Below are positions 45,904 to 63,088 of a stretch of DNA of 64,000 bases, one piece after another. Source of the DNA: Naegleria gruberi (taxonomy: Eukaryota); assembly GCA_000004985.1 (NCBI GenBank), contig GG738852.1. One strand, written 5' to 3'. The notes below the pieces were generated by a model that searched no databases, was not told the DNA's origin, and worked only from the letters and a program-made list of their open reading frames with translations. The position numbers and the translations under genes were made by a program. How positions within the stretch are numbered: the first letter of the stretch is position 1; every line of letters starts with the position of its first letter.

Positions 45904-47934
45904 ATGCCGAAAAGTCACGAAGTGTGGAGTGAAGCCCAATTTGTGAATGTTGGACAGGGTATGAATACAGCCACGCACAAATATACAACATCAACTAATG
46001 AAGAATTGTTTCCCATTGCCTGTGGACAATGCAGAAAGCTACATAAGCGTTGGTATGTTATTTTGTGATTGGAATTTGTTGTGATGATAATGAAATAATA
46101 ATAGTGGTAAGTGATACATGTTCGGAGGAACTTTAATATTCTCTCTCTAATAGATAAGAAATTACCATCATGTTCGAAATGCGTTTCAAAGGGGTTGACC
46201 TGTACGGTAGGTTTAATCGATTCATAGTTGTGTTGGGATAATTAGTAAAAGTATCAAGAACCAAAAAAGAAGGGTAGAACAAAGGGATCTAAAAATCATG
46301 TCACTAGTACTGAAGGTAATTCTAAAAATCAACAATCAAATAGTGGAGAAAACACTCCATCCCCCTTGAATCGAGATGATAATTCCAATGAAAATTCTTC
46401 ATCACCACCAAGTGTAGTAGTAGAAAATATTCCTCAATGTCAGTCATCTTCACAAAATAGTAATGTAAAAACACCATACGGAACCAATCTTGTAAATATT
46501 TCAAATAATCTCGTCAATAATGTGATGAATCCGATAACAAGTGTGGAAAATATGTTGAGTCAAACTCCTTCGTTTTTAAGAACAATGAGGATGAACCTTA
46601 TTGATGCTTACTATGAAATAGTATCTTTGGGCTATCCTCTTATTGAGAGATCAGAATTGGAGCGATACATGTTTAGCCAGGATCAACTCAATGATAGAAA
46701 GGAAATTCTTGCATTTGTCTTGTCTATACAGGGATTGTGCCAACAAAGGTTTGGATATTCAGATCTTGCCACTGATAGTATTGAAAAATCTGCTCTAGTT
46801 CTGAAAGACTGTTTTGATGGATACTCTGATTTTTATACAGCTGCAACTTATTCAAATTTTGCATATTATTTTTTAGGTGAAGGCGATACAAAGAAATCAA
46901 GATTCTACAATCATTTTGTAGAATTTTATTTGAAAGAATTGGATGAATTTGCAAATATTTACCAGCAAAACCTTAGATGGATTAAGCTTTTGGTTGACTA
47001 TTTGGGAAATCCTAGATTTCCCTATCTTTCTCCTGTTGATTTAATAGGATTTTTCAACTCTGTAGTAGATAAGGATATGCCTACTGAATGGAAGAATGCA
47101 CTCTTTGATTTTGCTGGTACTAATATTTCAAATTGTGAAGAAAGGTTGGCTATTTTTCATTGCATTACAGATTCAATGCAAAAGATGAGAAGAGGGTCAC
47201 TTATATCATCTATTATTTATGATGTAATTTATGGTGTGTTGAAAACAGGATTGAGTATTTCTATTTATTCTTTTGTGGATTTAATTCATTTTAGGCAAAC
47301 TATATTCGACCTTATTGTCAAGATGTTTAATATTTCAGATAATGAATACTTTTCATTCTCACCACCTATTGTAATACCCTACATGATCGTTTCTGCCAAA
47401 ATATTATTGGAGATGGAAAAGGTTATCGCTACAGGAGAGTTGAATACTAATGGTATCGATTACTACAGTTTACTCTCTAAATGTAATAGAGCACTCAACA
47501 TTTTAGCAAAGAGATACAGGTCCATCTCTTTATCATACTCTGATGTTTTACAGCAATTGAATACTCTTTTATCTAATAGATTCCAAAACTCTGAGACATA
47601 TATAGATTATAGCATTCCAGCAACTATTCCTCAAACTAAATCAAAAATATCTAGACTTGTGGAATTTGATTCAGAAATTAAGGGGTTCTTCCTTCCTTTT
47701 GTTCATCCACTAATTGAGCAAAACATGCTCACCCCTAAACCTCATGTTACATTTGCTACAGAACTTTCACCAAGTCGATCAACTGATCAAGCCAAGCCAC
47801 AAACAACCAATTCTCCCAATGCTTTCGAAAATAACGACTTCATAATGTCATTTTATCAAGATCCTCTGTTAACAGATGAAATAATTGCGTGTCTAGAAGA
47901 AGATGAGCATTATTTAAATGATGAATTTCTCTAA
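45904..47934 (+). CDS. Zn2Cys6 (GAL4-type) binuclear-cluster transcription factor, 4 exons including a putative 2-nt micro-exon. Approximate join(45904..46050, 46105..46106, 46154..46206, 46252..47934).
   Basis: The spliced N-terminus gives 'ACGQCRKLHKRCDKKLPSCSKCVSKGLTCT', a perfect C-x2-C-x6-C-x6-C-x2-C-x6-C cluster with the canonical 'CD...P.C' middle. A basic linker 'YQEPKKKGRTKGSK' follows. All introns have GT..AG ends and are 45–54 nt. See the finding on the micro-exon. Confidence 0.55.
46105..46106 (+). other. Putative 2-nt micro-exon ('TG') between two short introns in the Zn2Cys6 gene.
   Basis: AG|TG|GTAAGT context. Required to convert '...KR' + 'TG' + 'TG' + 'AT AAG' into 'KRCDKK'. 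Confidence 0.4.
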
Positions 47935-47942
47935 TAAAAACT

Positions 47943-49352
47943 TTATTTTTCAAATTTAGAAATAAACCATTTTGCTGATGTATCATGCACATGCTTGGCA
48001 AAATTGATATTCTTTGCTAATGGATGGGACTGGATGGATTCGTGTTCTTGAATAAATTTGAGAAACTTTTGAGTATCCTTTTTGGAAAATACAGCATCTG
48101 GGAAACACTCTTGTAAGAGGGAAGGTAATTTTGTCAATAAATATTCTTCGATTTCCTTTTCATCTTGTTCATTGAACTTGGATTTTTTCTCTTCTTTTTC
48201 TCTCTTGATTTTTTCTTGTTTGGTTTCTCCAAATTCCCAAATTAAGGAAGTGGATAGTTGAGTTTCAGAATCAGTAAATTGTCCATTAAATAATTTGTTT
48301 TCAAAGAGCATTAATTGTTTGATAAATCCATCATTTGGTCGAATAATATCTCTTCTTTCTTTAACATATTCAAGTGCCTGTTTCAAATTATATTTAAAGT
48401 GAGACATTACAAATGCAATCACAAAGCTGGCACTTCTTGATTTTCCAATAACACAATGAACTAGGATTTTCTTCTTTTCTTGGAGAGCAACGTTGATATA
48501 ATCGATACCTTCTTGTAAGAAGGTGAGAATATCTTGTTCCCTTTCATCTTTGAGTGCAATTCTCTTGAATTTAATCTGCTTTGGAACATGTTTACCAAGT
48601 GGCCACTCTTGTGTCACATTGAGGATGTATTCAACACCATTCTTGGTCAATTGAATTTCATCATTGGCATCCATTCCACTTCCCAAGAAGAGAACATCTT
48701 CAATAATGGTTGACATGCCACTCGGAAAGTTTGGTTCTCTCTTCTTTTTTGATAATTTGACAATTAACTCATCTTTGGAAATTTTAATTGATCGTTGCTT
48801 GCTATTTCCTTCACTTTTGTGATAAATTCCATAAAGAGATGAGATGGCGTGAATAAATTTACGATCAACATTTGTAAATTCAGTAGGGAATGTATAATTC
48901 TTTTGATTTTCATCTTCAATAAAGTTGGTAATAATTTTCAAAATTGAACCTGTTTTTTCATTCAAGATATAAATTGGTAATTCCAAACTTTCAGATGAAG
49001 GATGATCCATGTGGAACACTTGACTACTCAAACAAGTTTGTTCAATTTTTAACAAGGTTTCCAATAGAAATTCGGAAATATTTTCATCGGAATCTACTTG
49101 ATTAATGTTTATATTTTTCAAGTAAAAATCAATTATGCTTGGTGATACATCTTGTGTTGCTTGATTTAATTTTGTTGTCAAATCATCAATAAATTGTTTA
49201 ATTTTAACATTTTCCAAAGTGTTGTATGCCAATGGAATTGGTTCTGATAAACAAGTGTGGATATTGAAAGTAACAGTGCCACTCAAGCCCTTGTTACACA
49301 ATTCTACAACTTGATCTAATCCTTCCGATGATGATGAAGATGGTGATGACAT
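47943..49352 (-). CDS. Dual-specificity protein phosphatase (MKP-like).
   Basis: Active-site 'VHCVIGKSRSASFVIAFVM' (HCxxGxxRS). True ATG is at 49352 ('aaaaaaaATGTCATCACC', MSSPSSSS). The stop lies 8 nt from the Zn2Cys6 gene stop on the other strand. Confidence 0.7.
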   Translation of the reverse strand: MSSPSSSSSEGLDQVVELCNKGLSGTVTFNIHTCLSEPIPLAYNTLENVKIKQFIDDLTTKLNQATQDVSPSIIDFYLKNININQVDSDENISEFLLETLLKIEQTCLSSQVFHMDHPSSESLELPIYILNEKTGSILKIITNFIEDENQKNYTFPTEFTNVDRKFIHAISSLYGIYHKSEGNSKQRSIKISKDELIVKLSKKKREPNFPSGMSTIIEDVLFLGSGMDANDEIQLTKNGVEYILNVTQEWPLGKHVPKQIKFKRIALKDEREQDILTFLQEGIDYINVALQEKKKILVHCVIGKSRSASFVIAFVMSHFKYNLKQALEYVKERRDIIRPNDGFIKQLMLFENKLFNGQFTDSETQLSTSLIWEFGETKQEKIKREKEEKKSKFNEQDEKEIEEYLLTKLPSLLQECFPDAVFSKKDTQKFLKFIQEHESIQSHPLAKNINFAKHVHDTSAKWFISKFEK

Positions 49353-49441
49353 TTTTTTTATTGTAAAATTAGAAAACAAACTTTGATGAACTACAACAAA
49401 CGAATACAAAAGTTTAATTGTGTGCAAATTAGAGATGGAAT

Positions 49442-52001
49442 CTATCTTCTCTTTTTGCATTTTTCAATCATACGAAGTGTTGGTAAATCTTGATTGTTTT
49501 GTTGAAGATACTCTCTAAATAATGGAAGTGCTTCTTCACATTCGTCACAGAAAAATCTTGAACATGCTTCATTGTACATTTTCCACTTATTCTTTTGTTC
49601 TGTGGATTGTAATTCATACATCCATTCATCCATTTCAACTGACTTGGATTCACCAACTTCATATAATTTTACCTTTTCTGTTCTTCTAATTTCTATTAAG
49701 GGAGAGGTGGTGCTATCCTCATTCAAAAGATGTGTACTAGCAACATATCTTGTATGGAAATCATTACTAATTTCAACATTAGCATCATTTGTTATTACTA
49801 TTCCCAAGTTAAACTTTTTAGCCTTCTTCATCAATAATTGTAAATTATTGTTGGCACTACCAATAATGGTAAAAGACTTGGAGTTTTTAGTACCAACATT
49901 ACCACAATGAGCATGTTGAGACAAAATACCAAACCTAACCTTGAATTGCTCTAACATCTTTGGAGATTGATTGAAAATGTCCTTTTGTTCCCATTTTGTG
50001 GAGCGTATTTGGTTCATTCTCTCTCTCAGTGTTGCAGCAGTGTGAGCAGCTTTCAATTCGTGGAATTTAATTCGCTCAGTGGAATTCCAACTCAAAAAGA
50101 CACTTTCATTCTCAAAGTTACCAATTTGAGCACCATTTGTAAGAGAAGCCTTTTGTAAAACTTCATAAATATCTGTCAAGAGATGAGTAATTTCATTAAA
50201 ACTCAAATTTTGAACCCACAAGTTAAATCCATCAAGATAGATCACCATGGATGAAACTCTTCTCTTTTCAAAACCAATCTTGAATAGTACGTTTGAAGAA
50301 GCTCCCATACTCTTCTTCATTGAAGATGAATTATTCATGGATGTATCTAAACCTGTGGCACTGTTGAGAGAAGCTCTTCTCTTTGATCCTGAAGGTACTG
50401 CCAAAAAGTTATTGCCAGTGCTATGCTTCATAGTGGAATTATTAATTTCTTCGACAGGTTGATCTTGATTTTCAAGCTGGTGCAACAAGTGAGAAGGAAT
50501 GAAGGCTCTATATTGCTTAATTCGTTGGGTCATCATTAAGAATTGGTCTTGCAATTTAGAAACTTCCTTAAATCTACTTGGTTTGATATTTAAAAAATCA
50601 AGTTCCATTCTCGAGACGCTCTCGAAAAGTTCAATAAGATTTTGGAAAGGTTTTGTTATCTTTACAGAGTAAACAATACCAGCAATAACTCCACCAATAG
50701 TAATAAGCACACTGATACCTAAGGCAATGCAAATTGCAATAATCATTGGTCCAATATATATCCACTGAGGTACAGAGAAGATTATTATCCAATCCATATT
50801 AAATTGAGTACACATTCTATAAGCACTAGTGACACGAGAGGTGAACATGTTTGTGCTCATTGTGTTGCACTTTAAGGTTTCATTGAGAGGATTTGTATAG
50901 CTGGAAACGAGTTCTGCATACATTTTTGTAATTTCTGGATCTGAGTGTTGATCTGGGGTTATTCTACCAGTGATTGAAATTTCAGGTTTACTCGCTTGAT
51001 GTTTACAAGTTGAATTATTGAAATAATGTGTTACAATAAAACTCACTGAACTACTTACTGGCAATAATAAAATTGGTGCTTGATTCAATGATCAAACCTA
51101 TTGATCCAATAACATAATCTGCTGTTGCTGTTTTTAAGAATTTACTCATATTGTCCACACTCATATCCAAGTGGAGAAACCAATCAAATGGTTTGTCACT
51201 TGTGGCTTGAGTATTATTAGGTGCTGTAAATGAATTAACCAAAGCTATCAACACAGCATCAATACCTGGAGATTTATAGGTGAGTGTATATACAGGTTTT
51301 CCAGGATTGGTTTTGATAACTGAATATGAGGATCTTGTATCGTATGGTTTTGTTGTTTTAACAGAGTATGAAAAGTTGGCAGGAATGCATCCTTGATTTA
51401 CATTAAGGGTTACACATGGATATCTGTACAGACCAGTATCATTTTGCAAAGTTTGTGAAACTGGAAGTGTTTTCACCATCAAAATACCTTGGTGGGGATT
51501 TCCTCTTCCGTACAAACTTGCAGCATTAACAAATCCTGCATGGTACTTGATTTCGTTAAAGTAAATGTTTTGCATGTGCTTCATAACCTTTGGTTGGAAA
51601 ACATCAGAGTGATTATTTGACATGGCCACTATCAGTTGGTTCTTCATTGTGTCTGAACCAACAGCAATTTCTCTAAATGTGTTTTCAGTGTATTGTGTAA
51701 TTTTTGAGAATTGAGCCTCTGTGAGTGATCGAGACAAAGTTCGGGTGGTATCAGCAAAAAAGGCTACCCAAATAGCTGTAAGGAATAAAACACATAACAA
51801 TATCACTGTTAAAAAGATGGTTATTGAACAAGATTTGATGGAGATTGTGAACCTTGATTTCAAGACCAATTCATCTTCACTCGTTCCAGTCGATATTATT
51901 TCCATAGAGTTTTCTCCATTCTGACTTCCTGTGGTTTGAACAGGCACTATGGTCGACTTCTTCCAGTTTGGATGTAATTGATCATTTGGAGTAGTTGTCA
52001 T
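49442..52001 (-). CDS. Receptor-type class III adenylate/guanylate cyclase with a large extracellular N-terminal domain, 2 exons. Approximate join(52001..51058, 50994..49442), ±1 nt.
   Basis: TM1 'ITIFLTVILLCVLFLTAIWVAFF', an extracellular region of about 250 aa, TM2 'IIFSVPQWIYIGPMIIAICIALGISVLITIGGVIAGIV', then a cyclase homology domain ('VIYLDGFNLW...GILSQHAHCGNVGTKNSKSFTIIGSANN'). A 63-nt GTAAGT..AAG intron keeps the frame. True ATG is 'MTTTPNDQ' at about 52001. Confidence 0.6.
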
Positions 52002-52811
52002 TATGTTTGAGTTGGTGGAGGAGCTTTTGTTTATGAGTATGATGATGATTTTGTTAAGCAACTTTAGGACTAGTGAAAGGAAGGCTCAACAAATCGATAT
52101 TTAGGAGATTTGATTTGATAGGTTTTTTTGAGGTGAGAATTTGGTAAGGGTTGTCATTAAGTGTCTCTTGGTGTGATGAATAAAACTAGCGTTGTTGGCG
52201 GGAATACCGTCCAGTGTCTTTATAGAAAATATACATTCCTTAATCAAATATTATACCGTAGGATGTGTTGCGTGCATCTAAATTAAAGCCTCGTCCAAAC
52301 AAAGGTCTTTTTACGTAAAAAAACAAACTTATCAGAACATCTTAACGGCCCAGATGCAAAGAGCAAATTCGTCCAATTTATATATTAAGGCATTTTTAGG
52401 ACATCATTGTCAGTAATAAAGAATAAAGAGGCGCAATATCTTTTATAAATCTATCTCAACTTTTCGTAATAGTCACAAGCAAAGAACAGGTGCAATCAAC
52501 TACTTAACTTGAAACCTATCTTAAAAAAATTGGGCTTCCTTTTGAAAGAACAACAAGCCATGTCTACATCTTCAAGAAGAACAATCACTAAGCTAATAAC
52601 ACTCCATTTTAAAATTGAAATTGTAATTGCAGATTTTGGATTGGCTAAAAAGTTTCTAGAAATGAAAGGCAATTTACAAGTAGGTCCATACCTTGAAAAT
52701 TCACAACCTCAGAAAATGAAGCCAAATTTGCTCCAATTAATTGGAGAATGTTTTCAAAAACTACTGCTCATTAGCAGTTACAGAAATTCAAATCAATTTG
52801 TTGTAGAGATA

Positions 52812-53931: not shown

Positions 53932-55617
53932 ATGTCAGCAATGATGTTCATCATTAAATTTCTCATCGTTACCATTTGTTTAATCCAAATTTGTGTTCAC
54001 TCAACATTGAACGATGAAATATTCAACTCTGTAATATCTACCAATCAATTACCATTTGAAATGCCATCTTTTGATCAAGTGTTAAATTCCAACAAGTTTG
54101 TTCTCGCTCATTATTTCAAACCCTTTCCACTTTCAATTGATAATAAGAATCCATCTCAAGATTATTATTCAGTTAATTATTTACAACCATCAGGAGAGGG
54201 AAATAAATTTATAAAACAAGGTGGTTTTTTGAGAGTGAGACCTCTTCCAATATTTGCACCACAAAATGCTTCAAATATTTATTGGAAATTAACAAATATG
54301 GAAAAGGAAGTGAGAATGGCAATTGCTAGAGGTATTAATGGATGGTCCTATGATATTTTGAGTGTTAAGGATATTGGTAATGGAACTTGTTTTTATAAGG
54401 GGACTTTATGTGAATTGTCAATCATGTTGCAAGCTGTTAAAAATGTTGATTCTCAATCAAGATTTAAAGTAGTTTTAATGCCAGATATGTCTTCTTCACT
54501 TTCACTATCAGATATTGTAACAATAGTTAAATATTTATATAATGACACTGCCATTTATAGAAATGGTTCAAAACCTGTCATTGCACCATTTTATGCAGAA
54601 GGTGTTTCACCAATTCAATGGCAAAGTTTATTACAAAATTTAACAAGTGATGGATTTCCAATACTTTTACTTCCAACATTTTTAACTATTTCTTCAAAAT
54701 ATATTAATGTAGAAATGTATGCTAATATTAGTATTGGAATGGGTGTTTGGGCAACTGTTGGAGTGCCAACACAAGGTTCTTCATCTATTGCATATGCTTC
54801 AACTGTTAGGAATGCAAAATCTAATAATTCTTTATTATTTTGGCTGGGAATGATGCCACAAACTTATAAACCAAAAGATTGCATACTCTATGATTCGTAT
54901 AACAGTTTAGCTTATAGAAATGCATGGATGTCTACTTTACAAACAAATGCAGATATTGTTCATGTGGCAACTTGGAATGATTTTAGTGAAAGTGGTCAAT
55001 TACAACCAATTACTGATTTACAAAATACAACAGGAAACGGATTTTATGATTTAACAGCTTATTATGCACATTGGTGGAGAACTGGATTACAACCAACTAT
55101 TATTAGAGATGTTGTTTATTATTTTTATAGAAAGGAAGCCACCAATGCCTATGCACCTAATATGGGATGTAATTTTACAATGGGAATTTCACAAAGTGTT
55201 TCAAATCAAATTGAAGTATTGACCTTTACAACAGATCAATCAATTTTAACAATTATTATTGAGAATTCAAATTATACATTTATGATTAATTCAAGTGGTA
55301 TTAATTCTTTCTTTATTCCATTACAAGCTGGAAAACCAAATATTCAATTATGGAGAAATGGAATTAATATCATTACTGTAGAAGGAAATCATGAAATTTT
55401 TGCAACCAATGTTGGATTACCGAATGGAGTATTGGATTTGACTTATTGGAGCGGAAGTACTGCTTCTTTTATTACACCTTCGAAAAGTGTAAATACTTTT
55501 ACTTCCTCTAATAGAAACGTGGGTAGCTCAATAGTTGCAATTTCCAAATGTTCAACTCATGTGAATATGTTTATTCCATTATTCTTTGTATTCATTGCAA
55601 TATTATTAATATTTTAA
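53932..55617 (+). CDS. Secreted, possibly GPI-anchored glycoprotein. The call as a glycoside hydrolase family 71 (alpha-1,3-glucanase/mutanase-like) protein is tentative.
   Basis: N-terminal signal peptide 'MSAMMFIIKFLIVTICLIQICVHS'. Many N-glycosylation sequons. C-terminal hydrophobic tail 'MFIPLFFVFIAILLIF'. 'FVLAHYFKPFP' and 'EVRMAIARGINGWSYDIL' are faintly GH71-like. Confidence 0.4.
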   Translation: MSAMMFIIKFLIVTICLIQICVHSTLNDEIFNSVISTNQLPFEMPSFDQVLNSNKFVLAHYFKPFPLSIDNKNPSQDYYSVNYLQPSGEGNKFIKQGGFLRVRPLPIFAPQNASNIYWKLTNMEKEVRMAIARGINGWSYDILSVKDIGNGTCFYKGTLCELSIMLQAVKNVDSQSRFKVVLMPDMSSSLSLSDIVTIVKYLYNDTAIYRNGSKPVIAPFYAEGVSPIQWQSLLQNLTSDGFPILLLPTFLTISSKYINVEMYANISIGMGVWATVGVPTQGSSSIAYASTVRNAKSNNSLLFWLGMMPQTYKPKDCILYDSYNSLAYRNAWMSTLQTNADIVHVATWNDFSESGQLQPITDLQNTTGNGFYDLTAYYAHWWRTGLQPTIIRDVVYYFYRKEATNAYAPNMGCNFTMGISQSVSNQIEVLTFTTDQSILTIIIENSNYTFMINSSGINSFFIPLQAGKPNIQLWRNGINIITVEGNHEIFATNVGLPNGVLDLTYWSGSTASFITPSKSVNTFTSSNRNVGSSIVAISKCSTHVNMFIPLFFVFIAILLIF

Positions 55618-56276
55618 TATTGAGATTATCTTCGAAGCTTATTTACTTCAGTGAAGGTAATCTTTACCATATAAACTTTACAAAAGGGAAATTTTGAGTA
55701 CTCAATCTTTCAAGAACAAAATAAATGTTGGGCCAAAACCTTTCCATTCTTTCGAACATTCTGTTTGAACGTATGACCAATATAACTGTTAATCTTTCGA
55801 AACTCAAATTTAGCTAAAATTCAATAAAAGTAAATGGCATTGGTGACAAATCGTTTGAGATTGTTGAATATTTTACGACAATTATCGAAATTGAATTAAT
55901 TCACTCGGCAGCAGTAGAAACATAAAACGGAACCTTCAAAAGATAATCCAAAGAAGAATCATATTCTTGAACCATATATCGTATCTTGTTTGCAAAACCT
56001 AGCACAAATTCCCTTTCTTAATTAATTTGAATTCTCCCTTGCTTAATAGATTCAAATTTGTGCTAATATAAGATAGTAAACTTAACCATCAGTTCAATTT
56101 CAAATCGTTTAAAGATTTCATGGGTTTAGATTTAGAGTCAATTCTCCCAACTCCCCAATATATTTAATGGCTAATATTATTGTTACAATGCTCTCAAACA
56201 CAAGACTCACTCAACTATTTAACTGTTTCAATTCTCCAACTGAATACATAATCAACAATTTTACCAAATTAAAAAA

Positions 56277-59054
56277 ATGTCGCTAATCTACTTGGACTAT
56301 AATGCTACCACACCAATAGATGTTGCAGTCTCCTCTGCAATGATTCCATACATGACCCAACATTTTGGCAATCCATCTTCGTCTCATCACTACGGCACTA
56401 TTACTAAGAAGGCAGTCACACGATCACGTATTCAAGTTTCACAATTGTTGAATTGTCATCCCGATGAGGTGATTTTTACGAGGTTTGTTTTTTAATGCAA
56501 ATTATGAATGACACACTGTAAAACAGTGGAGGAACAGAAAGTAATAATTATGCAATCAAGGTGTGTTTTAATCAATTTTATAATAATAATAATTTTATTC
56601 ATCTAATTTTAACATTAATACCTAAAAATTGGAATTGATCAATTAATTTAAATGAATTTTAATGAATTATTAAAGGGTATTGTGGAGAATGCCCTGTTAA
56701 ACTCAAGTGATCGAATCATTCATTGTATTACATCTAGAGTTGAACATCCTTCAGTGATGGAAGTTTTCAAATTTCTAGAACAAAGATATAGTCGAGTAAG
56801 AGTAACGTATTGTGGTGTTGATGAGAATGGCACGATTAGATTGGACGAATTTAAAAATGCACTGAGTAGGGAGACTCTTTTGGTTAGTGTCATGCATTCG
56901 AATAATGAAGTTGGCACACTGCAACCAATTAGAGAAATTGGAAAATTAATTAGAAGTTTTGAAAAGGAGAATCAAATGGAGAGAAATTCAATCATTTTAC
57001 ATACAGATGCTGCTCAAAGTATTGGAAAAACTTTAATTTCATTATATGAGAAACCATTATACTCTTACATTGATGATGAGGAACAAGGAAAGAAAATTGA
57101 CTTGGACAGAAATGAAATTAGGAACAAGGTGATGGCTCTCAATGAGAATTTTGTAAGTGATCTCTTTGGAACGAGTAGTGATACGGAGGAAGAGGATATC
57201 ACACCGGTTCACCTACTTTCTGTATGTACACACAAATTCTATGGTCCAAAGGGTGTTGGTGCCTTATTTATCAGAAGAAATTGTGGCATTCAATTAGAGA
57301 AACAAGTGCATGGAGCTTCTGTTCATGAGAGAGGATACAGAAGTGGTACTGAGAATGTTATTCTAGTTGTTGGATTAGGTAAAGCCTGTGAGCAATGCCT
57401 TATTCATATGGTTGACAGAGTTGAACACATGTTTACAACAAGGGAGAAACTTTACAATGGATTGTTAAACAACTTGTCAAATATTGTACAAATCAAACTG
57501 AATGGTCATCCAGAGAAGAGACTTCCAAACACTTTGAATATTTCTTTTGCTGGAATTGAGGCTAATACAATTTTAGATGATCTCTCCCAACACATTGCAG
57601 CAAGTGCTGGTTCAGCTTGCCACTCTTCATCTCATGAGGAAGGCGCAGAGAAGAAAATTGTAATTTCACAAATATTGGCTGAAATGGGAGTGGATGTAAA
57701 TATTGCTATGGGAACTATACGTTTCTCAACTGGTTTATTATTGACAAATGATGAGGTTGAGAGTGCTATTCACCATGTTACTGATACTATTAGCAAATTG
57801 AGTGGTGGAAATGCATCTTTTGCAATTACTTCTCAATTAAGCAATAGTTTATTCACACCAATAGAAGTTCCATCTATCAAATCAGGACTGGATTTGGCAA
57901 TGAAAAGAGTAGTGGAAGATATGGTTGAACCTTCATTTTCTGCAGAGAATGAGGGATTCAATGTGAAACTCACCTCCACAACTCACGGATTGGGATGTGG
58001 ATGCAAGATTAGAGCACAAACACTCTCAAGTATTTTGAGCAAGATACCAAAGCAACCATTCGATCCTAATGTTCTGGTTGGAACTGAGACGAGTGACGAT
58101 TGTGGTGTGTACAAGCTTACTTCTGAGCTTGCACTGTGCGCCACTGTTGACTTTTTTACACCTATTGTCGATTCTCCAAAAGATTTCGGAGCCATTGCAT
58201 GCGCCAACGCCTTAAGTGATGTTTATGCAATGGGAGGAGAGTGTAAAGTTGCTCTCAATATTGTGGCCTTCCCAGTTAAGAGACTCTCATTAGATATTTT
58301 ACAATTGATTCTGCAAGGTGCACAAGAAAAAGCCAGTGAAGCTGGTGTTACCATCATTGGTGGTCACTCAATAGAAGATAATGAACCAAAGTTTGGTATG
58401 TGTGTCAGTGGCTTGGTTCATCCTGAACGAATTTGGAAGAATGTTGGATGCAGAAATGGAGATGTACTCTTATTGACCAAACCTATTGGTACAGGAGTAC
58501 TCACTACAGCCATGAAGAAAGGACTTATTGGACCTAATGATGATTGTTCCAAGAAGTGTATCGAATGGATGTCCACACTTAATAAGAGTGCCTCAGAAAT
58601 TTTGAGAGGCTTGCACAGAGTAAATTCATCCTCCACACCATATGAAATACATGCCTGCACGGATATTACAGGTTTTGGATTAATGGGTCACTTAAGAGAA
58701 ATGATTACTGGAGACAATCAAGATAATTTATATGCACAAATTGAATCTGAAAAAGTTCCATTCATGGACAAGGCCTATGAAATGATTCTCTCAGATATCA
58801 TTCCTGGTGGTACAATTAACAATATGAATTTTGTTCAAAAGATCACTAAATTCAATGAGAGTGTTAGTCAAATTGTAAGAACTTTATTGTGTGATGCTCA
58901 AACCTCTGGTGGTCTCTTATTTAGTGTTTCTCCACATGAGAGTGAGGAAATTATTTCTGATTTCAAGAGATTAGGTATTTCAATATGGACAGTTGGTTCT
59001 ATTAAGCAACATGATACATGTTCCAATGATAATTGTACCATTCACGTATTGTAA
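56277..59054 (+). CDS. selD: Fusion protein: NifS-like class-V aminotransferase (cysteine desulfurase/selenocysteine-lyase-like) at the N-terminus and selenophosphate synthetase (SelD/SPS, Cys-type) at the C-terminus, 3 exons. Approximate join(56277..56482, 56527..56560, 56676..59054).
   Basis: Exon 1 'LIYLDYNATTP...HHYG...EVIFT' connects via a 34-nt exon 'SGGTESNNYAIK' to 'GIVENALLN...RVEHPSV'. The PLP-Lys region is 'CTHKFYGPKGVGALFIRR' and the active Cys loop is 'SAGSACHSSS'. The SelD half has 'THGLGCGCKIRAQTLSSIL' (the GCGCK loop with Cys, not Sec), 'VGTETSDDCGVYKL', 'FFTPIVDSPKDFGAIACANALSDVYAMGG' and 'GGHSIEDNEPKFG'. Introns are 44 and 115 nt (GTTTGT and GTGTGT donors). Confidence 0.8.
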
Positions 59055-59075
59055 GAATGATCTAGTTAAAATACT

Positions 59076-60713
59076 TTAATTATTGTCACTAGGTGTGGTG
59101 GTTAATACACTATTTTCTACAAGTTCAATATCTGTTGGTTTTGTAACGGGAGCAGAAGGTTCTGAAATGATTGAAGTTGGAGTGTGACAATCCTCCGAAA
59201 TTAGTGAGCTAGTAGAATTGGAAAGCGTTTCACTTTGTCCAGGCACTGTCAAATATTGATTGAATTGTGGAGCGGTAACATTCCCATTGTCCTTAGAGTG
59301 GTCGATACTAAATGATGGAGTCATTGGTGATGTTGGCTCACCACTGTAAACACTATCTGTATCCACCATTGCACTTGTTGTATTACTTTTACCTTCGATG
59401 TGTTTCTTCTTCATTCTTCTATCGAATGTCTTTTCTGTATAATTAAATAATGGATTGTACAACATGAGTACAACAATTGCAAAGCTCAAAATTCCAAATG
59501 AATTGACAAAATAATGAGCTGTTTCCCAAATATCATTTCCACTCACTCTTGTAATTGTTTGTAAAATCATAGCAACCACCTGCAGAATTGCACAAAAAGA
59601 CAAACCTAATTGTAACACAATAATCTTGGCAAATCTTTTCCTCTTGACACACAACTTCTTTTGTTCTCTCTGAGACTTGACAGCTTGTTTGTTGATTGTT
59701 GAGACAACCTTAAATCCATAAATGTTAAACAGTATTGTTTCTGCAATAATCATTGAGCAATCAATTAAAAAGATGGAAATGTAGAATGCTAAGAGGAAAT
59801 CTTTCACAATTGCCAGTCTAGCCAATAAATAGCCAACTGATATTACAATCATAATCAAGGAAGCAATTACAAAGTAGAGAATATTTCCAGAAATGATCGA
59901 AATTTGTAAAATCTTGAAAGCTTTGGGTGAGATGGCTCCAATTTTCTGACATGTCGTCAAACTATCTCAATATATTAACATATTTAAATTTCCAAAATAC
60001 ACTTACAATACATTCAAAACAAAACACATAATAACTAAGGTAGTTGTCATATTTCCAAATGTGAGTCCCAACTCTGCACTGGCAAATACAAAGAATGCTG
60101 CAATCTGATGTCTCAAACTCTCATCTGTAATTGTAATGGAAGTCAATTGTTTAAATGAATTATCCAACGTGATTGAGAGAATATCACTCACACTTCTCAC
60201 ACACAATGCCAAGATTTGAATGACAACCAAACAAATAACCATGCAAAACATTACTTTTTGATTCTTATTCATGACTGCTTCCTTCTTTTCTTGTCCAGAA
60301 TTTGATTTTCCATTTGTTTGTTGCTGATTATTTTGATGATTGTTAGAGTGTACTGAGAAACTACTTCTGTGACTTTGACTCACTTCTCCTCTACTATTCG
60401 AAACTGCTGTTGGTCCATTAGTAGTATTACTTCCAGAGGCTTGCTTTGATGATTGCTGGTGTTGTACATGATCCGATGAGGAGGCTGATGCTGGTTGATT
60501 ATGAATAGAGGATAGAGACATTGGATCCTCTTCCTTTTCGCACCACTTGGAAGTATTTCTCAACTTGACACTAATGATGAAAGAAATGAATAAGAGCAAA
60601 TAGGTTAAGAATGCAACGAGAAAGAATGAACTGATTCCAATACTAGCTGCAGCGTAGGGAACCTCTTTTAAATAATACTTGACGTAGGTGGCATTGTAGG
60701 TCAGCTGATCCAT
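59076..60713 (-). CDS. Seven-transmembrane (GPCR-like) protein with a long S/Q-rich loop and an S/T-rich C-terminal tail, probably 2 exons. Approximate join(60713..60011, 59944..59076).
   Basis: Exon 1 has TM1 plus a long loop plus TM2–3. Exon 2 has TM4–7 plus a tail. Only a phase-0 junction (weak GTATTG donor, CAG acceptor at '...gtcag|aaaattgga') joins the frames ('...CFVLN|KIGAISPK...'). The strong GTAAGT 4 nt downstream is out of phase. Confidence 0.4.
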
Positions 60714-61039: not shown

Positions 61040-63088
61040 TTAATTTTTAATACCTTGTTGTGTTGCTACATATAATAACTCTTTCAGGCCAGCAATTTCA
61101 AAATTTTTCAATTCAACTCTTTTTCTTTCAGTAACCAGTTTCTTCCTCAGATAGGTTGGGTTTTTGAAAAATGGAATTCCTTGTTCGTGCACAAGCTCTG
61201 ATTCTTCTTCTTCTGTTTCTGAAGTTGGAATCTCAGCAAGATTCATGACTGGTTGAGGCGGAGGAGACTTGGATATTCCATTCGATTTGGTAGTCGATTT
61301 AGTGGTATTCGAAATGGTTGAAACATTGGAAGGGGACTTTTTGTTACTGGAAGGCATGCTAGTAGGAGTTGACATGTTACTGATATTTGTAGGAACATTT
61401 GGGGTCACTGCTGGCGTACTATTAGATGCACTCTTAGAAATCTTTCCAGTTGTTGATGGACTTCTCTTCTGGGAGCTGTTTGTAGCGCTTGGAGTTTGGT
61501 ACTTTTCAGTATTCCTTGTTGGAGGAGAGCAATCTCTAGAATGCTTATTGCTTGAAGATTGCTCTGGTTCGTCAACATTGGAGTTTGGCGATTGAACAAT
61601 GTGAGAGTTTTCTTTCAAAACATTATTCTCCTGCTTTAAACTTTCAATTCTATCAACTAATTTGTGTTTTAACTTTTTGTATCTTTCCAGCTTTTCAATC
61701 ATCTTTTCATACTTTTCAACAAAGGTTGAGAATTGAAGCTTGGTTTGATCGAATTCCTTAACAAAATTCACCAAATCTTTTTCTTGATGCTTAATCTTTT
61801 TGGATTTGGTATGAAGCTCCTTTTGTTGTGATCCAATTTGAGCTTCAAGTTCTGAAATTCTCATATTTTGTTCCTCTATTCTCTTCTCAAGTCTTGCAAT
61901 TGTTTCTGCTTGTTGAGAGCACCTATCGTTGGATGATCGTAGTTGTTCTGTGGCTCTTGAAAGCTCCCCTTCCAAATTATTTACATTTTCGCTTAATCCT
62001 CTATTCTCGGTTTGCAGCTTGTCAATCTGAGTGGCGAGTTGTTGCGATGTTTCTGAAAGAGAGTCTAACCTCTCCTTCCAAGTTTTCTTTAGGGTCAACA
62101 ACTTTTGATTCTCTTCGGCCATCCTTTGTTGTTGATTGTAGTATTGTTCATTTAGTGCCTTTTCGTTTTTGAAACCTTCGTTAGCAATTTTCTCTCTTCT
62201 TTGACTTTCCATAAGTTCATTTTCGAGCATTGCTAATTTCCTTTCTAAATCTCTGTTCTTCTTTTCTAAATCCCATTTTTCTTTCTCATTCCATTTAGCG
62301 TCAAAGTCAATTGAAGATTTAACTTCATTGTCACCGTCATAGCCATTAGAAGCTGCCACTGATTCAAACCTATTAAGTAAATTTTTTGATGGTGAAACTG
62401 TTTTAGAGAGATCTGTTTTTTCCATAGAAGCTATTTGTTGATTCAGAGGATTTCTAATGGTCACATGAATGTCATTGAATCCATCACTTGCCATTATGGC
62501 TGTAGCAGAATCATCATCATCGTCCATCACCATAAGGCTGTTTAGAATATTTTGTCCAGTCTGAGAATCTATTGTTTGATTGGAATTCTTTTGCCAATTT
62601 TTAAGAGTGGTCACCACTGATATTAATGAATCTGATTTTTCGGAATCTGAACTGCTTGAAGTCTTGTTGTCATATTCTCCAAAATGAGAAATTAGTTCAT
62701 GAGATGAGAGTTTTCCAATACTTTGTTTCATTTCTTTAAGGTCGTATTTAAATTCAAGAAGTTCATTATCATCACTCTTCCTTATTCTTTGGGCTCTTCC
62801 GAACATGTCATCCCATTCAGTGTCATCTTCCTCTGAGAGCATTGAAGTATCGTAATTAGTGCTGAAACTTTCATCCAATTGCGAAAGTTCCTTTGCCTTG
62901 GAACTATTGAGACTAGTTCCAGTCGATTGTTGAGATGTATTTGTTGCAAGTAATTCAATCTTATTCGGTGAGGGTTGTTGAGGTGGAAGATTGCTACAAG
63001 CAAAATTAGCACCAGAATTGTTATTTGGTGTGTTAGGATTACTGGTCCTTTTCTTTGCGGGTGATGATGAATTTGAGAGAACCATCAT
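61040..63088 (-). CDS. Coiled-coil protein of 682 aa with an S/T/N-rich N-terminus and a basic C-terminus. Function unknown.
   Basis: Extended heptad-repeat E/K/L/Q-rich core ('LERKLAMLENELMESQRREKIANEG...LQTENRGLSENVNNLEGELSRATEQL'). The start is 'ATGATGGTTCTC'. Upstream lie (AAG)6 and E2F-like sites. Confidence 0.5.
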   Translation of the reverse strand: MMVLSNSSSPAKKRTSNPNTPNNNSGANFACSNLPPQQPSPNKIELLATNTSQQSTGTSLNSSKAKELSQLDESFSTNYDTSMLSEEDDTEWDDMFGRAQRIRKSDDNELLEFKYDLKEMKQSIGKLSSHELISHFGEYDNKTSSSSDSEKSDSLISVVTTLKNWQKNSNQTIDSQTGQNILNSLMVMDDDDDSATAIMASDGFNDIHVTIRNPLNQQIASMEKTDLSKTVSPSKNLLNRFESVAASNGYDGDNEVKSSIDFDAKWNEKEKWDLEKKNRDLERKLAMLENELMESQRREKIANEGFKNEKALNEQYYNQQQRMAEENQKLLTLKKTWKERLDSLSETSQQLATQIDKLQTENRGLSENVNNLEGELSRATEQLRSSNDRCSQQAETIARLEKRIEEQNMRISELEAQIGSQQKELHTKSKKIKHQEKDLVNFVKEFDQTKLQFSTFVEKYEKMIEKLERYKKLKHKLVDRIESLKQENNVLKENSHIVQSPNSNVDEPEQSSSNKHSRDCSPPTRNTEKYQTPSATNSSQKRSPSTTGKISKSASNSTPAVTPNVPTNISNMSTPTSMPSSNKKSPSNVSTISNTTKSTTKSNGISKSPPPQPVMNLAEIPTSETEEEESELVHEQGIPFFKNPTYLRKKLVTERKRVELKNFEIAGLKELLYVATQQGIKN

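What the first reader, a model, noticed from the sequence alone, without database searches (positions are those of the whole stretch)
56277..59054. Single gene fusing a NifS-like PLP enzyme to selenophosphate synthetase (SelD)
Three exons encode a complete class-V aminotransferase (PLP-Lys 'THKF', catalytic-Cys loop 'SAGSACHS') fused in frame to a complete Cys-type SelD ('GLGCGCK', 'DDCGVYK', 'GGHS').

NifS-like selenocysteine lyases and cysteine desulfurases deliver Se or S to SelD in bacteria. A covalent fusion would channel selenide directly into selenophosphate synthesis.

SPS fusions with other domains have been described sporadically, but I cannot verify from memory which lineages carry a NifS–SPS fusion. 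In a eukaryote this would be a notable selenium-utilisation module. The gene also shows that the organism probably makes selenoproteins or selenouridine, so in-frame TGA codons elsewhere in the genome deserve scrutiny.
Basis: partly seen in the sequence, partly recalled or inferred. Interest (0 to 1): 0.7.

Follow-up and report, generated by a model that had tools for sequence, protein, structure and literature searches.

The report
Known NifS–selenophosphate synthetase fusion gene
The window really does encode one protein joining a NifS-type cysteine/selenocysteine-cleaving enzyme to a bacterial-type selenophosphate synthetase, but this exact Naegleria gruberi gene was already described as a NifS-SPS fusion in 2015, so it is a correct observation of a known thing.

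Summary
Three exons (56277-56482, 56527-56560, 56676-59054, + strand), with two GT..AG introns of 44 and 115 nt, encode an 872-aa protein. It has a complete NifS/IscS-type PLP enzyme (aa 1-456), a roughly 50-aa disordered linker, and a complete Cys-type SelD (aa 509-872).

The fusion does not depend on splicing. Exon 3 alone runs uninterrupted from inside the NifS half to the end of SelD. All catalytic residues I checked against E. coli IscS and SelD are present.

The gene is not new. The window maps to Naegleria gruberi scaffold GG738852.1, bases 640001-704000. Mariotti et al. 2015 (Genome Res, PMC4561486) list this SelD at 697921-699003 and describe it as a NifS-SPS fusion, shared with Acanthamoeba castellanii and acquired from bacteria. 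The same architecture was reported in Geobacter sp. FRC-32, Caldithrix abyssi and Spironucleus salmonicida.

What I add:
- Orthologues exist in N. fowleri, N. lovaniensis and Willaertia magna, and in two uncultured eukaryotes.
- At least 115 bacterial clusters share the architecture.
- Both halves give the same eukaryote grouping in trees.
- Intron positions differ between species.
- There is a heterolobosean-specific structured insert before the PLP lysine.

No biochemistry on any such fusion turned up in the searchable literature. Selenium channelling therefore remains an inference.

The parts
56277..56482 (+). Exon 1 (aa 1-69, the last codon split): start codon and N-terminus of the NifS domain
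   Evidence: ORF and splice model. An in-frame TGA at 56241-56243 bounds the start. The N-terminus is colinear with the bacterial fusions.
56483..56526 (+). Intron 1, 44 nt, GT..AG, phase 2
   Evidence: Retaining it gives a stop at 56493-56495.
56527..56560 (+). Exon 2, a 34-nt micro-exon encoding (S)GGTESNNYAIK
   Evidence: It restores a conserved NifS block that is encoded without introns in N. lovaniensis.
56561..56675 (+). Intron 2, 115 nt, GT..AG, 14% GC
56676..57803 (+). Exon 3, part 1: rest of the NifS/IscS-type PLP domain (aa 81-456). Key codons: H104 56745-56747, D191 57006-57008, PLP-Lys K267 57234-57236, catalytic Cys C395 57618-57620, R429 57720-57722.
   Evidence: Pfam Aminotran_5; alignment to E. 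coli IscS 1p3w; codon check.
57048..57206 (+). Lineage-specific insert of about 53 aa (aa 205-257) between the DAAQSxGK motif and the PLP-lysine strand. Bacterial fusions lack it; N. fowleri, N. lovaniensis and W. magna share it.
   Evidence: Alignment. The IscS match splits here into two stretches. AF2 pLDDT is 78-95 over most of it, with two strands and a helix.
57624..57665 (+). Lengthened catalytic-Cys loop (aa ~397-410; +8 aa relative to IscS and the bacterial fusions)
   Evidence: Low pLDDT at model residues 314-322.
57804..57959 (+). Interdomain linker (aa 457-508), non-conserved and predicted disordered
   Evidence: Gap-rich region of the alignment. pLDDT 33-43 for model residues 378-427. 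The frame is open, with no stop and no AATAAA.
57960..59054 (+). Exon 3, part 2: bacterial-type Cys-SelD (aa 509-872) plus the stop codon. Key codons: C521 57996-57998, K524 58005-58007, D555 58098-58100, D572 58149-58151, N591 58206-58208, D595 58218-58220, D743 58662-58664.
   Evidence: TIGR00476 at 352 bits; AIRS and AIRS_C; alignment to E. coli SelD 3u0o at 3.1e-72; codon check. Residues are identical to 'SPS.1.cysteine.Naegleria_gruberi' in the PMC4561486 supplement.

Best explanation
This is the Naegleria gruberi NifS-SPS gene already reported by Mariotti et al. 2015. It is a nuclear, intron-containing gene of bacterial ancestry. Its single polypeptide carries an N-terminal group-I (NifS/IscS-type) PLP-dependent cysteine desulfurase / selenocysteine lyase and a C-terminal Cys-type selenide, water dikinase (SelD/SPS).

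The likely mechanism is inferred, not shown. The NifS domain would remove Se from free selenocysteine (or S from cysteine) and hold it as an enzyme-bound perselenide/persulfide on C395, which sits on a mobile loop. The Se would then pass to the flexible Gly-rich N-terminal loop of the SelD domain (C521/K524). SelD would use ATP to make selenophosphate for Sec-tRNA synthesis. A roughly 50-aa disordered tether keeps donor and acceptor together.

N. gruberi also has a second SPS (a methyltransferase-SPS fusion on another scaffold). The fusion protein may therefore be specialised for recycling selenocysteine.
For: Shown:
- Gene structure and an uninterrupted frame across the junction.
- Both domains are complete and significant.
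- Every catalytic residue checked is conserved against E. coli IscS and SelD and is invariant across 46 fusion homologues.
- Identity with the published gene: the supplement lists GG738852.1 + 697921-699003, which is window 57921-59003 at an offset of exactly 640000, with identical residues. The main text and Suppl. S2 name the N. gruberi NifS-SPS fusion.
- Full-length colinear orthologues exist in N. fowleri (64% identity), N. lovaniensis (63%) and W. magna (60%). At least 115 bacterial clusters of 730-756 aa have the same three Pfam domains at 43-47% identity.
- The SelD half scores 247 bits against E. coli SelD but 99 bits against human SEPHS1, so it is bacterial-type.
- Eukaryotic fusions form one group against 39 bacterial fusions, with NJ bootstrap 100 (full), 100 (NifS half) and 99 (SelD half). 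This fits transfer of an already fused gene.
- In the three intron-mapped genes and the P0004 gene as called, the junction lies inside one exon.
- AF2 models both domains confidently and the linker as disordered.

From the literature:
- Trypanosome SEPHS2 physically binds selenocysteine lyase (PMC7595633).
Against: - No enzymatic, expression or localisation data exist for this protein or for any NifS-SelD fusion in the searched library.
- The NifS half is below NCBIfam's equivalog cutoffs for NifS (358 vs 531 bits) and IscS, so its exact substrate (Cys or Sec) is open.
- Sequence alone cannot show Se over S preference.
- pTM is 0.59, so the model gives no reliable geometry between the two active sites.
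- The trees are NJ, unrooted and built from top-scoring hits only.
Confidence: 0.85

Rival explanations
1. The two halves work independently. The NifS domain would be a general cytosolic cysteine desulfurase (sulfur for Fe-S clusters, thio-cofactors or tRNA), and the SelD domain would take free selenide. The fusion would then be an inherited accident of the bacterial donor, with no channelling.
For: The NifS half scores about equally against E. coli IscS (236 bits) and mitochondrial NFS1 (233 bits), well above selenocysteine lyases (164-166 bits). It matches the bacterial selenocysteine lyase model SclA only weakly (55 bits). The roughly 50-aa linker is non-conserved and disordered.
Against: The same domain order and full colinearity persist in at least 115 bacterial clusters and six eukaryotic sequences, which argues for selection on the linkage. 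The literature shows NifS-like proteins act as Se donors to SelD (cited).
Confidence: 0.1
2. The gene model is an artefact: either two adjacent genes joined by mis-prediction, or bacterial contamination in the assembly.
For: The closest non-heterolobosean full-length relatives are bacterial. No transcript data were available here.
Against: - One open frame of 800 codons spans the junction, while the other frames are full of stops.
- The gene has two spliceosomal-type introns and the AT-rich composition of the window.
- It sits between a gene with a eukaryote-typical domain (GH71) and domain-less ORFs of similar composition.
- Orthologues in three other heterolobosean genomes have their own introns.
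Confidence: 0.01
3. The fusion serves selenium detoxification or storage, or some use of selenophosphate other than selenocysteine (for example a selenouridine-like or cofactor pathway). The methyltransferase-SPS paralogue would then supply Sec synthesis.
For: Mariotti et al. note that species with NifS-SPS usually have another SPS, and speculate that the fusion cannot fully perform the standard role. The bacterial-type SelD has a bacterial origin, and bacteria use selenophosphate for selenouridine and for Se-cofactors (PMC2276186, listed).
Against: No partner genes for such pathways were found in this window. Nothing here distinguishes this from Sec recycling.
Confidence: 0.04

Closest known systems
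N. gruberi NifS-SPS fusion ('SPS.1.cysteine.Naegleria_gruberi', GG738852.1:697921-699003) in Mariotti et al. 2015, Genome Res 25:1256 (PMC4561486)
   Same: It is the same gene. The residues are identical, the coordinate offset is exactly 640000, and it is described there as NifS N-terminal and SPS C-terminal, with Cys at the Sec position and small introns.
   Different: Nothing differs in substance. The paper lists coordinates only for the SPS part. The full three-exon model, the inserts and the residue mapping are worked out here.
Bacterial NifS-SelD fusions (Geobacter sp. FRC-32, Caldithrix abyssi; now many Bacteroidales, Calditrichaeota, KSB1, Zixibacteria, Planctomycetes MAG proteins named 'selenide, water dikinase SelD', ~735 aa)
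   Same: They share the domain order, the full-length colinearity, 43-47% identity and all catalytic residues.
   Different: - The bacterial proteins lack the 53-aa insert, the lengthened Cys loop and the long linker.
- They have GCACK rather than GCGCK, and DDAAVY rather than DDCGVY.
- The Geobacter protein has Sec instead of Cys.
- They have no introns.
Spironucleus salmonicida selenophosphate synthetase-NifS fusion (Xu et al. 2014, PMC3916229) and the Acanthamoeba castellanii NifS-SPS fusion
   Same: They are eukaryotic NifS/SPS fusions interpreted as selenocysteine-recycling selenophosphate synthetases of bacterial origin.
   Different: They come from other eukaryotic supergroups. Neither was among the 120 best hits listed, so I did not compare them directly. 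In S. salmonicida the fusion is proposed to be the only SPS, whereas N. gruberi has a second one.
Separate E. coli NifS-like proteins (IscS, CsdA, CsdB/SufS) plus SelD, and trypanosome/mammalian SCLY plus SEPHS2
   Same: They carry out the same two chemical steps. Se delivery from the PLP enzyme to SelD, and a physical SCLY-SEPHS2 complex, are documented.
   Different: They are non-covalent partners encoded by separate genes. Eukaryotic SCLY and SEPHS2 are more distant in sequence (164-166 bits and 99 bits, against 236 and 247 bits for the E. coli proteins).

Membership tests
Class-V aminotransferase fold, group-I cysteine desulfurase (NifS/IscS/NFS1) | Significant match to Pfam Aminotran_5 above the gathering score | tested here: met
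   190.8 bits against a cutoff of 21.5, E 4.7e-56, in two stretches split by the insert.
Class-V aminotransferase fold, group-I cysteine desulfurase (NifS/IscS/NFS1) | PLP-binding Lys (IscS K206) together with H104, D180, Q183 and R354 | tested here: met
   K267, H104, D191, Q194 and R429 align to these residues in 1p3w and are invariant in 46 homologues.
Class-V aminotransferase fold, group-I cysteine desulfurase (NifS/IscS/NFS1) | Catalytic Cys on the group-I 'SSGSAC' mobile loop (IscS C328) | tested here: met
   C395 in 'SAGSACHS' aligns to C328. The loop is 8 aa longer than in IscS.
NifS proper (TIGR03402 equivalog) or IscS (TIGR02006 equivalog) | Score above NCBIfam's curated equivalog cutoff | tested here: not met
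   NifS scores 358.5 bits against 530.75; IscS scores 320.1 against 643.2. It is a NifS/IscS-like domain, not assignable to either orthologous group.
Cysteine desulfurase / selenocysteine lyase activity | PLP-dependent release of S or Se from Cys or Sec | not testable with these tools
   Needs an enzyme assay. No published assay for any NifS-SelD fusion was found.
Selenide, water dikinase SelD/SPS | Score above the TIGR00476 / NF002098 equivalog cutoffs | tested here: met
   352.3 bits against 125, and 337.6 bits against 299. AIRS and AIRS_C are both present.
Selenide, water dikinase SelD/SPS | [quoted passage not shown] | tested here: met
   C521, K524, D555, D572, N591, D595 and D743 align to these residues in 3u0o. 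That these residues are the functional ones is from my own knowledge of E. coli SelD studies.
NifS-SPS fusion family (Zhang 2008; Mariotti 2015) | NifS N-terminal and SelD C-terminal in one reading frame | tested here: met
   One ORF, 56652-59054, spans both halves. The protein is colinear with at least 115 bacterial fusions.
NifS-SPS fusion family (Zhang 2008; Mariotti 2015) | Identity with the published N. gruberi entry | tested here: met
   The supplement coordinates and residues match the window at an offset of 640000.
Canonical eukaryotic SPS2/SEPHS2 | Closer to eukaryotic/archaeal SPS than to bacterial SelD | tested here: not met
   99 bits to human SEPHS1 and 78 bits to Leishmania SPS, against 247 bits to E. 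coli SelD. It is bacterial-type, as Mariotti et al. concluded.

The most novel reading that the evidence does not exclude
The heterolobosean copies have changed since the transfer in ways that alter how the enzyme works. They carry a structured insert of about 53 aa just before the PLP-lysine strand, a lengthened catalytic-Cys loop and an extra Cys in the SelD 'DDCGVY' motif. These could form a lineage-specific intramolecular selenium relay or docking surface. The fusion would then be a dedicated selenocysteine-recycling selenophosphate synthetase, functionally distinct from the methyltransferase-SPS paralogue. None of this has been characterised biochemically.
Probability: 0.25. Interest if true: 0.4.

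Novelty: already known. Interest (0 to 1): 0.15.

Why it matters
It matters little as a discovery. The architecture was first reported in 2008, and this specific gene in 2015, together with the horizontal-transfer interpretation.

Its remaining value is as an untested natural experiment. A covalently linked Se donor and acceptor would be a convenient system for showing direct perselenide hand-off to SelD. That step is still only inferred for the separate enzymes.

The data also show that the fusion is now common in uncultured bacteria and is stably inherited across Naegleria and Willaertia. This updates the 'two bacterial instances' picture of 2015.

Tried and rejected
- **tRNA-Sec and SECIS in the window.** ARAGORN found no tRNA and Rfam gave no hit at gathering thresholds, so the window says nothing about the rest of the Sec machinery.
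- **Annotated N. gruberi model.** I looked up the exact 872-aa product in the 15-billion-protein collection and it is not there. I could not compare my model with the deposited annotation, and N. gruberi itself did not appear among the homologue hits.
- **Structure of the full spliced protein.** I predicted the exon-3 product (aa 81-872) instead. The missing 80 residues and a pTM of 0.59 mean no conclusion about interdomain geometry.
- **First tree attempt.** The Biopython BLOSUM distance run timed out. I replaced it with Kimura-corrected p-distances and NJ.
- **Insert as an unrecognised intron.** I considered whether aa 205-257 is an in-frame intron and rejected it. It has coding-like GC, its sequence is conserved in N. 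fowleri, N. lovaniensis and W. magna, it is exonic in their annotated genes, and AF2 predicts it as structured.
- **Conserved intron positions as support for the model.** This failed. The intron positions differ in all three species, so support comes from protein conservation instead.
- **Bacterial donor.** I could not name one. The nearest bacterial sequences are all about equidistant (0.70-0.74).
- **Selenium versus sulfur specificity.** I recalled from memory that a residue next to H104 (Asp in animal SCLY, Lys in IscS) influences Se specificity. Here it is Pro105, as in the bacterial fusions. I did not verify the correspondence and draw no conclusion from it.
Full report
**1. Is it there?**

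Yes. Reading 55800-59600 and listing ORFs shows two relevant frames. A short ATG-initiated ORF (56277-56495) encodes the N-terminus of a NifS-like protein. An 800-codon ORF (56652-59054) contains the rest of NifS and a whole SelD.

Joining exons 56277-56482, 56527-56560 and 56676-59054 gives a 2619-nt CDS, which is 872 aa plus a stop. The introns are 44 and 115 nt. They start with GT, end with AG, and are much more AT-rich (27% and 14% GC) than the CDS (37.5%).

Several points support the splice model:
- Without splicing, the frame stops after 72 aa.
- The 34-nt micro-exon supplies 'SGGTESNNYAIK', a block that is largely invariant in 46 homologues.
- N. lovaniensis encodes that block contiguously.
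- The start is bounded by an in-frame TGA 34 nt upstream, and 'MSLIYLDYNATTP' is colinear with the bacterial N-termini.

The fusion itself does not depend on any intron call. The domain junction (57804-57959) lies inside exon 3. The frame there is open, the other two frames are full of stops, and there is no AATAAA.

**2. What are the two halves?**

Pfam finds Aminotran_5 (4.7e-56), AIRS (1.7e-22) and AIRS_C (2.1e-14).

NCBIfam places the C-terminal half above the equivalog cutoffs for SelD: TIGR00476 scores 352 bits against 125, and NF002098 scores 338 against 299. The N-terminal half is nearest to NifS and IscS but falls below their equivalog cutoffs (358 against 531 bits; 320 against 643).

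Against solved structures, the best matches are E. coli SelD 3u0o (3.1e-72) and E. coli IscS 1p3w (6.8e-69). Residue-by-residue alignment and a codon check give these correspondences:

| Domain | This protein | E. coli residue |
|---|---|---|
| NifS half (vs IscS) | H104 | H104 |
| NifS half | D191 | D180 |
| NifS half | Q194 | Q183 |
| NifS half | K267 | K206 (PLP lysine) |
| NifS half | C395 | C328 (persulfide cysteine) |
| NifS half | R429 | R354 |
| SelD half (vs SelD) | C521 | C17 |
| SelD half | K524 | K20 |
| SelD half | D555 | D51 |
| SelD half | D572 | D68 |
| SelD half | N591 | N87 |
| SelD half | D595 | D91 |
| SelD half | D743 | D227 |

All of these positions are invariant across 46 fusion homologues.

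**3. Where does it come from, and is it known?**

Mariotti et al. [quoted passage not shown] Their Supplement S2 describes the N. gruberi gene as follows:
- It is a second, Cys-containing SPS with an N-terminal NifS homologue and small introns.
- It sits alongside the methyltransferase-SPS of da Silva 2013.

Their alignment entry 'SPS.1.cysteine.Naegleria_gruberi GG738852.1 + 697921-699003' begins MVEPSFSAENEGFNVKLTSTTHG and continues with residues identical to the window's. In the window that peptide starts at 57921 and the interval ends at 59003. The offset is exactly 640000, so the window is GG738852.1:640001-704000.

Earlier reports of the same architecture are:
- Geobacter sp. FRC-32 (PMC2398784).
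- Caldithrix abyssi and Spironucleus salmonicida (PMC3916229).

The finding is therefore a correct rediscovery.

**4. What I could add**

(a) *Distribution.* The best hits are full-length orthologues in N. fowleri (64%), N. lovaniensis (63%) and Willaertia magna (60%). Next come two metagenomic proteins of 796 and 804 aa. After those are at least 115 bacterial clusters of 730-756 aa with the same three domains at 43-47% identity. The sources name some of them as Bacteroidales, Marinilabiliales, Calditrichaeota/Caldithrix, KSB1, Zixiibacteriota, Eisenbacteria and Planctomycetes. One metagenomic protein (P0004) lies on a 35.6-kb contig with IFT52, CFAP161 and a guanylate cyclase. It is therefore from a flagellated eukaryote.

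(b) *History.* In NJ trees of 45 sequences, the six eukaryotic proteins form one group against 39 bacterial fusions. Bootstrap support is 100 (whole protein), 100 (NifS half) and 99 (SelD half), and the four heteroloboseans form a sub-group at 100. Both halves tell the same story, which fits acquisition of an already fused gene. The trees are unrooted, distance-based and sampled from top hits only. No donor phylum stands out.

(c) *Introns.* N. gruberi has two introns in the NifS N-terminus. N. lovaniensis has two in SelD (after GGH and after HGCT). W. magna has four at yet other sites. Intron positions are thus lineage-specific, and in every case the junction lies inside an exon.

(d) *Lineage-specific changes*:
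- A 53-aa insert (aa 205-257) sits between DAAQSxGK and the PLP-lysine strand. It is conserved among Naegleria and Willaertia, and a shorter insert is present at the same site in P0004 and P0005.
- The catalytic-Cys loop is 8-13 aa longer.
- The linker is longer.
- The motifs read GCGCK rather than GCACK, and DDCGVY rather than DDAAVY.

(e) *Structure.* I ran AlphaFold2 on the exon-3 product (aa 81-872) with 46 sequences.
- Mean pLDDT is 82 and pTM is 0.59.
- Both domains are modelled confidently.
- The insert is mostly at pLDDT 78-95, with two strands and a helix.
- The Cys loop is at low confidence, as expected for a mobile loop.
- The linker (aa 458-507) is at pLDDT 33-43, so it is a flexible tether.

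**5. Mechanism**

*Shown:* both active sites are intact and sit on one polypeptide.

*Established elsewhere:* E. coli NifS-like proteins can supply Se from selenocysteine to SelD in vitro (Lacourciere 2000, cited). Trypanosome SEPHS2 binds selenocysteine lyase. [quoted passage not shown]

*Inferred here:* C395 would carry a perselenide generated from selenocysteine and hand it to the C521/K524 loop. ATP-dependent phosphorylation would then yield selenophosphate. Whether the NifS half prefers Sec over Cys cannot be read from the sequence. It resembles IscS and NFS1 (233-236 bits) more than animal SCLY (164-166 bits) or the bacterial SclA model. No biochemical study of any NifS-SelD fusion was found in the searchable library.

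**6. Surroundings**

The gene lies 660 bp downstream of a GH71-domain ORF on the same strand. It converges on a membrane-protein-like ORF whose stop codon is only 21 bp away (22 bp between the two stop coordinates). There are no tRNA genes and no Rfam families in the 64 kb, so the window holds no other recognisable selenium machinery. The neighbours of the N. lovaniensis and W. magna orthologues are different genes.

**7. Verdict**

The novelty is nil at the level of the finding: this gene, this architecture and the HGT explanation are all published. Interest is low (0.15). The only open ground is experimental, namely the channelling, the Se/S specificity and the role of the heterolobosean insert.

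Noticed in passing
L002 4001-6891 (N. lovaniensis) and L003 4001-6688 (W. magna), compared with window 56277-59054: The three heterolobosean orthologues share no intron position. N. gruberi has 2 introns in the NifS N-terminus, N. lovaniensis has 2 in SelD, and W. magna has 4 elsewhere. All are 42-115 nt. This suggests independent intron gain or loss after the gene entered the lineage.
   Followed up: yes
L001 8001-10391 (JGI metagenome 3300062347, contig Ga0606064_0218): A 796-aa NifS-SelD fusion (P0004, 46% identity) sits on a contig with IFT52, CFAP161, guanylate cyclase and WAC/WSD-domain genes. It is therefore an uncultured flagellated eukaryote. It groups with the heterolobosean proteins and has a shorter insert at the same site.
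   Followed up: partly
P0001 (N. fowleri, 951 aa) and P0002 (N. lovaniensis, 919 aa) N-termini: Both annotated orthologues carry Ser/Thr-rich N-terminal extensions (about 45 and 17 aa) that are absent from the N. gruberi and W. magna proteins. The N. gruberi frame is closed by a TGA 34 nt upstream. These could be a targeting peptide or an annotation artefact.
   Followed up: no
window 57048-57206 (aa 205-257): A heterolobosean-specific insert inside the NifS PLP domain is predicted by AF2 to be ordered (a beta-hairpin plus a helix), even though only four sequences in the alignment have it. It has no Pfam match and its function is unknown.
   Followed up: partly
window 53932-55617 (+): The upstream neighbour is a 561-aa intron-less ORF with a signal-peptide-like N-terminus and a Glyco_hydro_71 (alpha-1,3-glucanase family) domain, E 4.2e-22.
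   Followed up: partly
window 59076-59960 (-) and 60003-60713 (-): A convergent downstream ORF (294 aa, hydrophobic, no Pfam family) ends 21 bp from the fusion gene's stop codon, so the 3' UTRs must be very short or overlap. The next ORF has only weak transmembrane-type matches.
   Followed up: no
window 47943-49460 (-): A 505-aa ORF combines an R3H domain with a dual-specificity phosphatase domain (DSPc, 1.5e-33). Several neighbouring large ORFs (46366-47934, 49442-51088, 51051-52061, 61040-63088) have no Pfam match.
   Followed up: no
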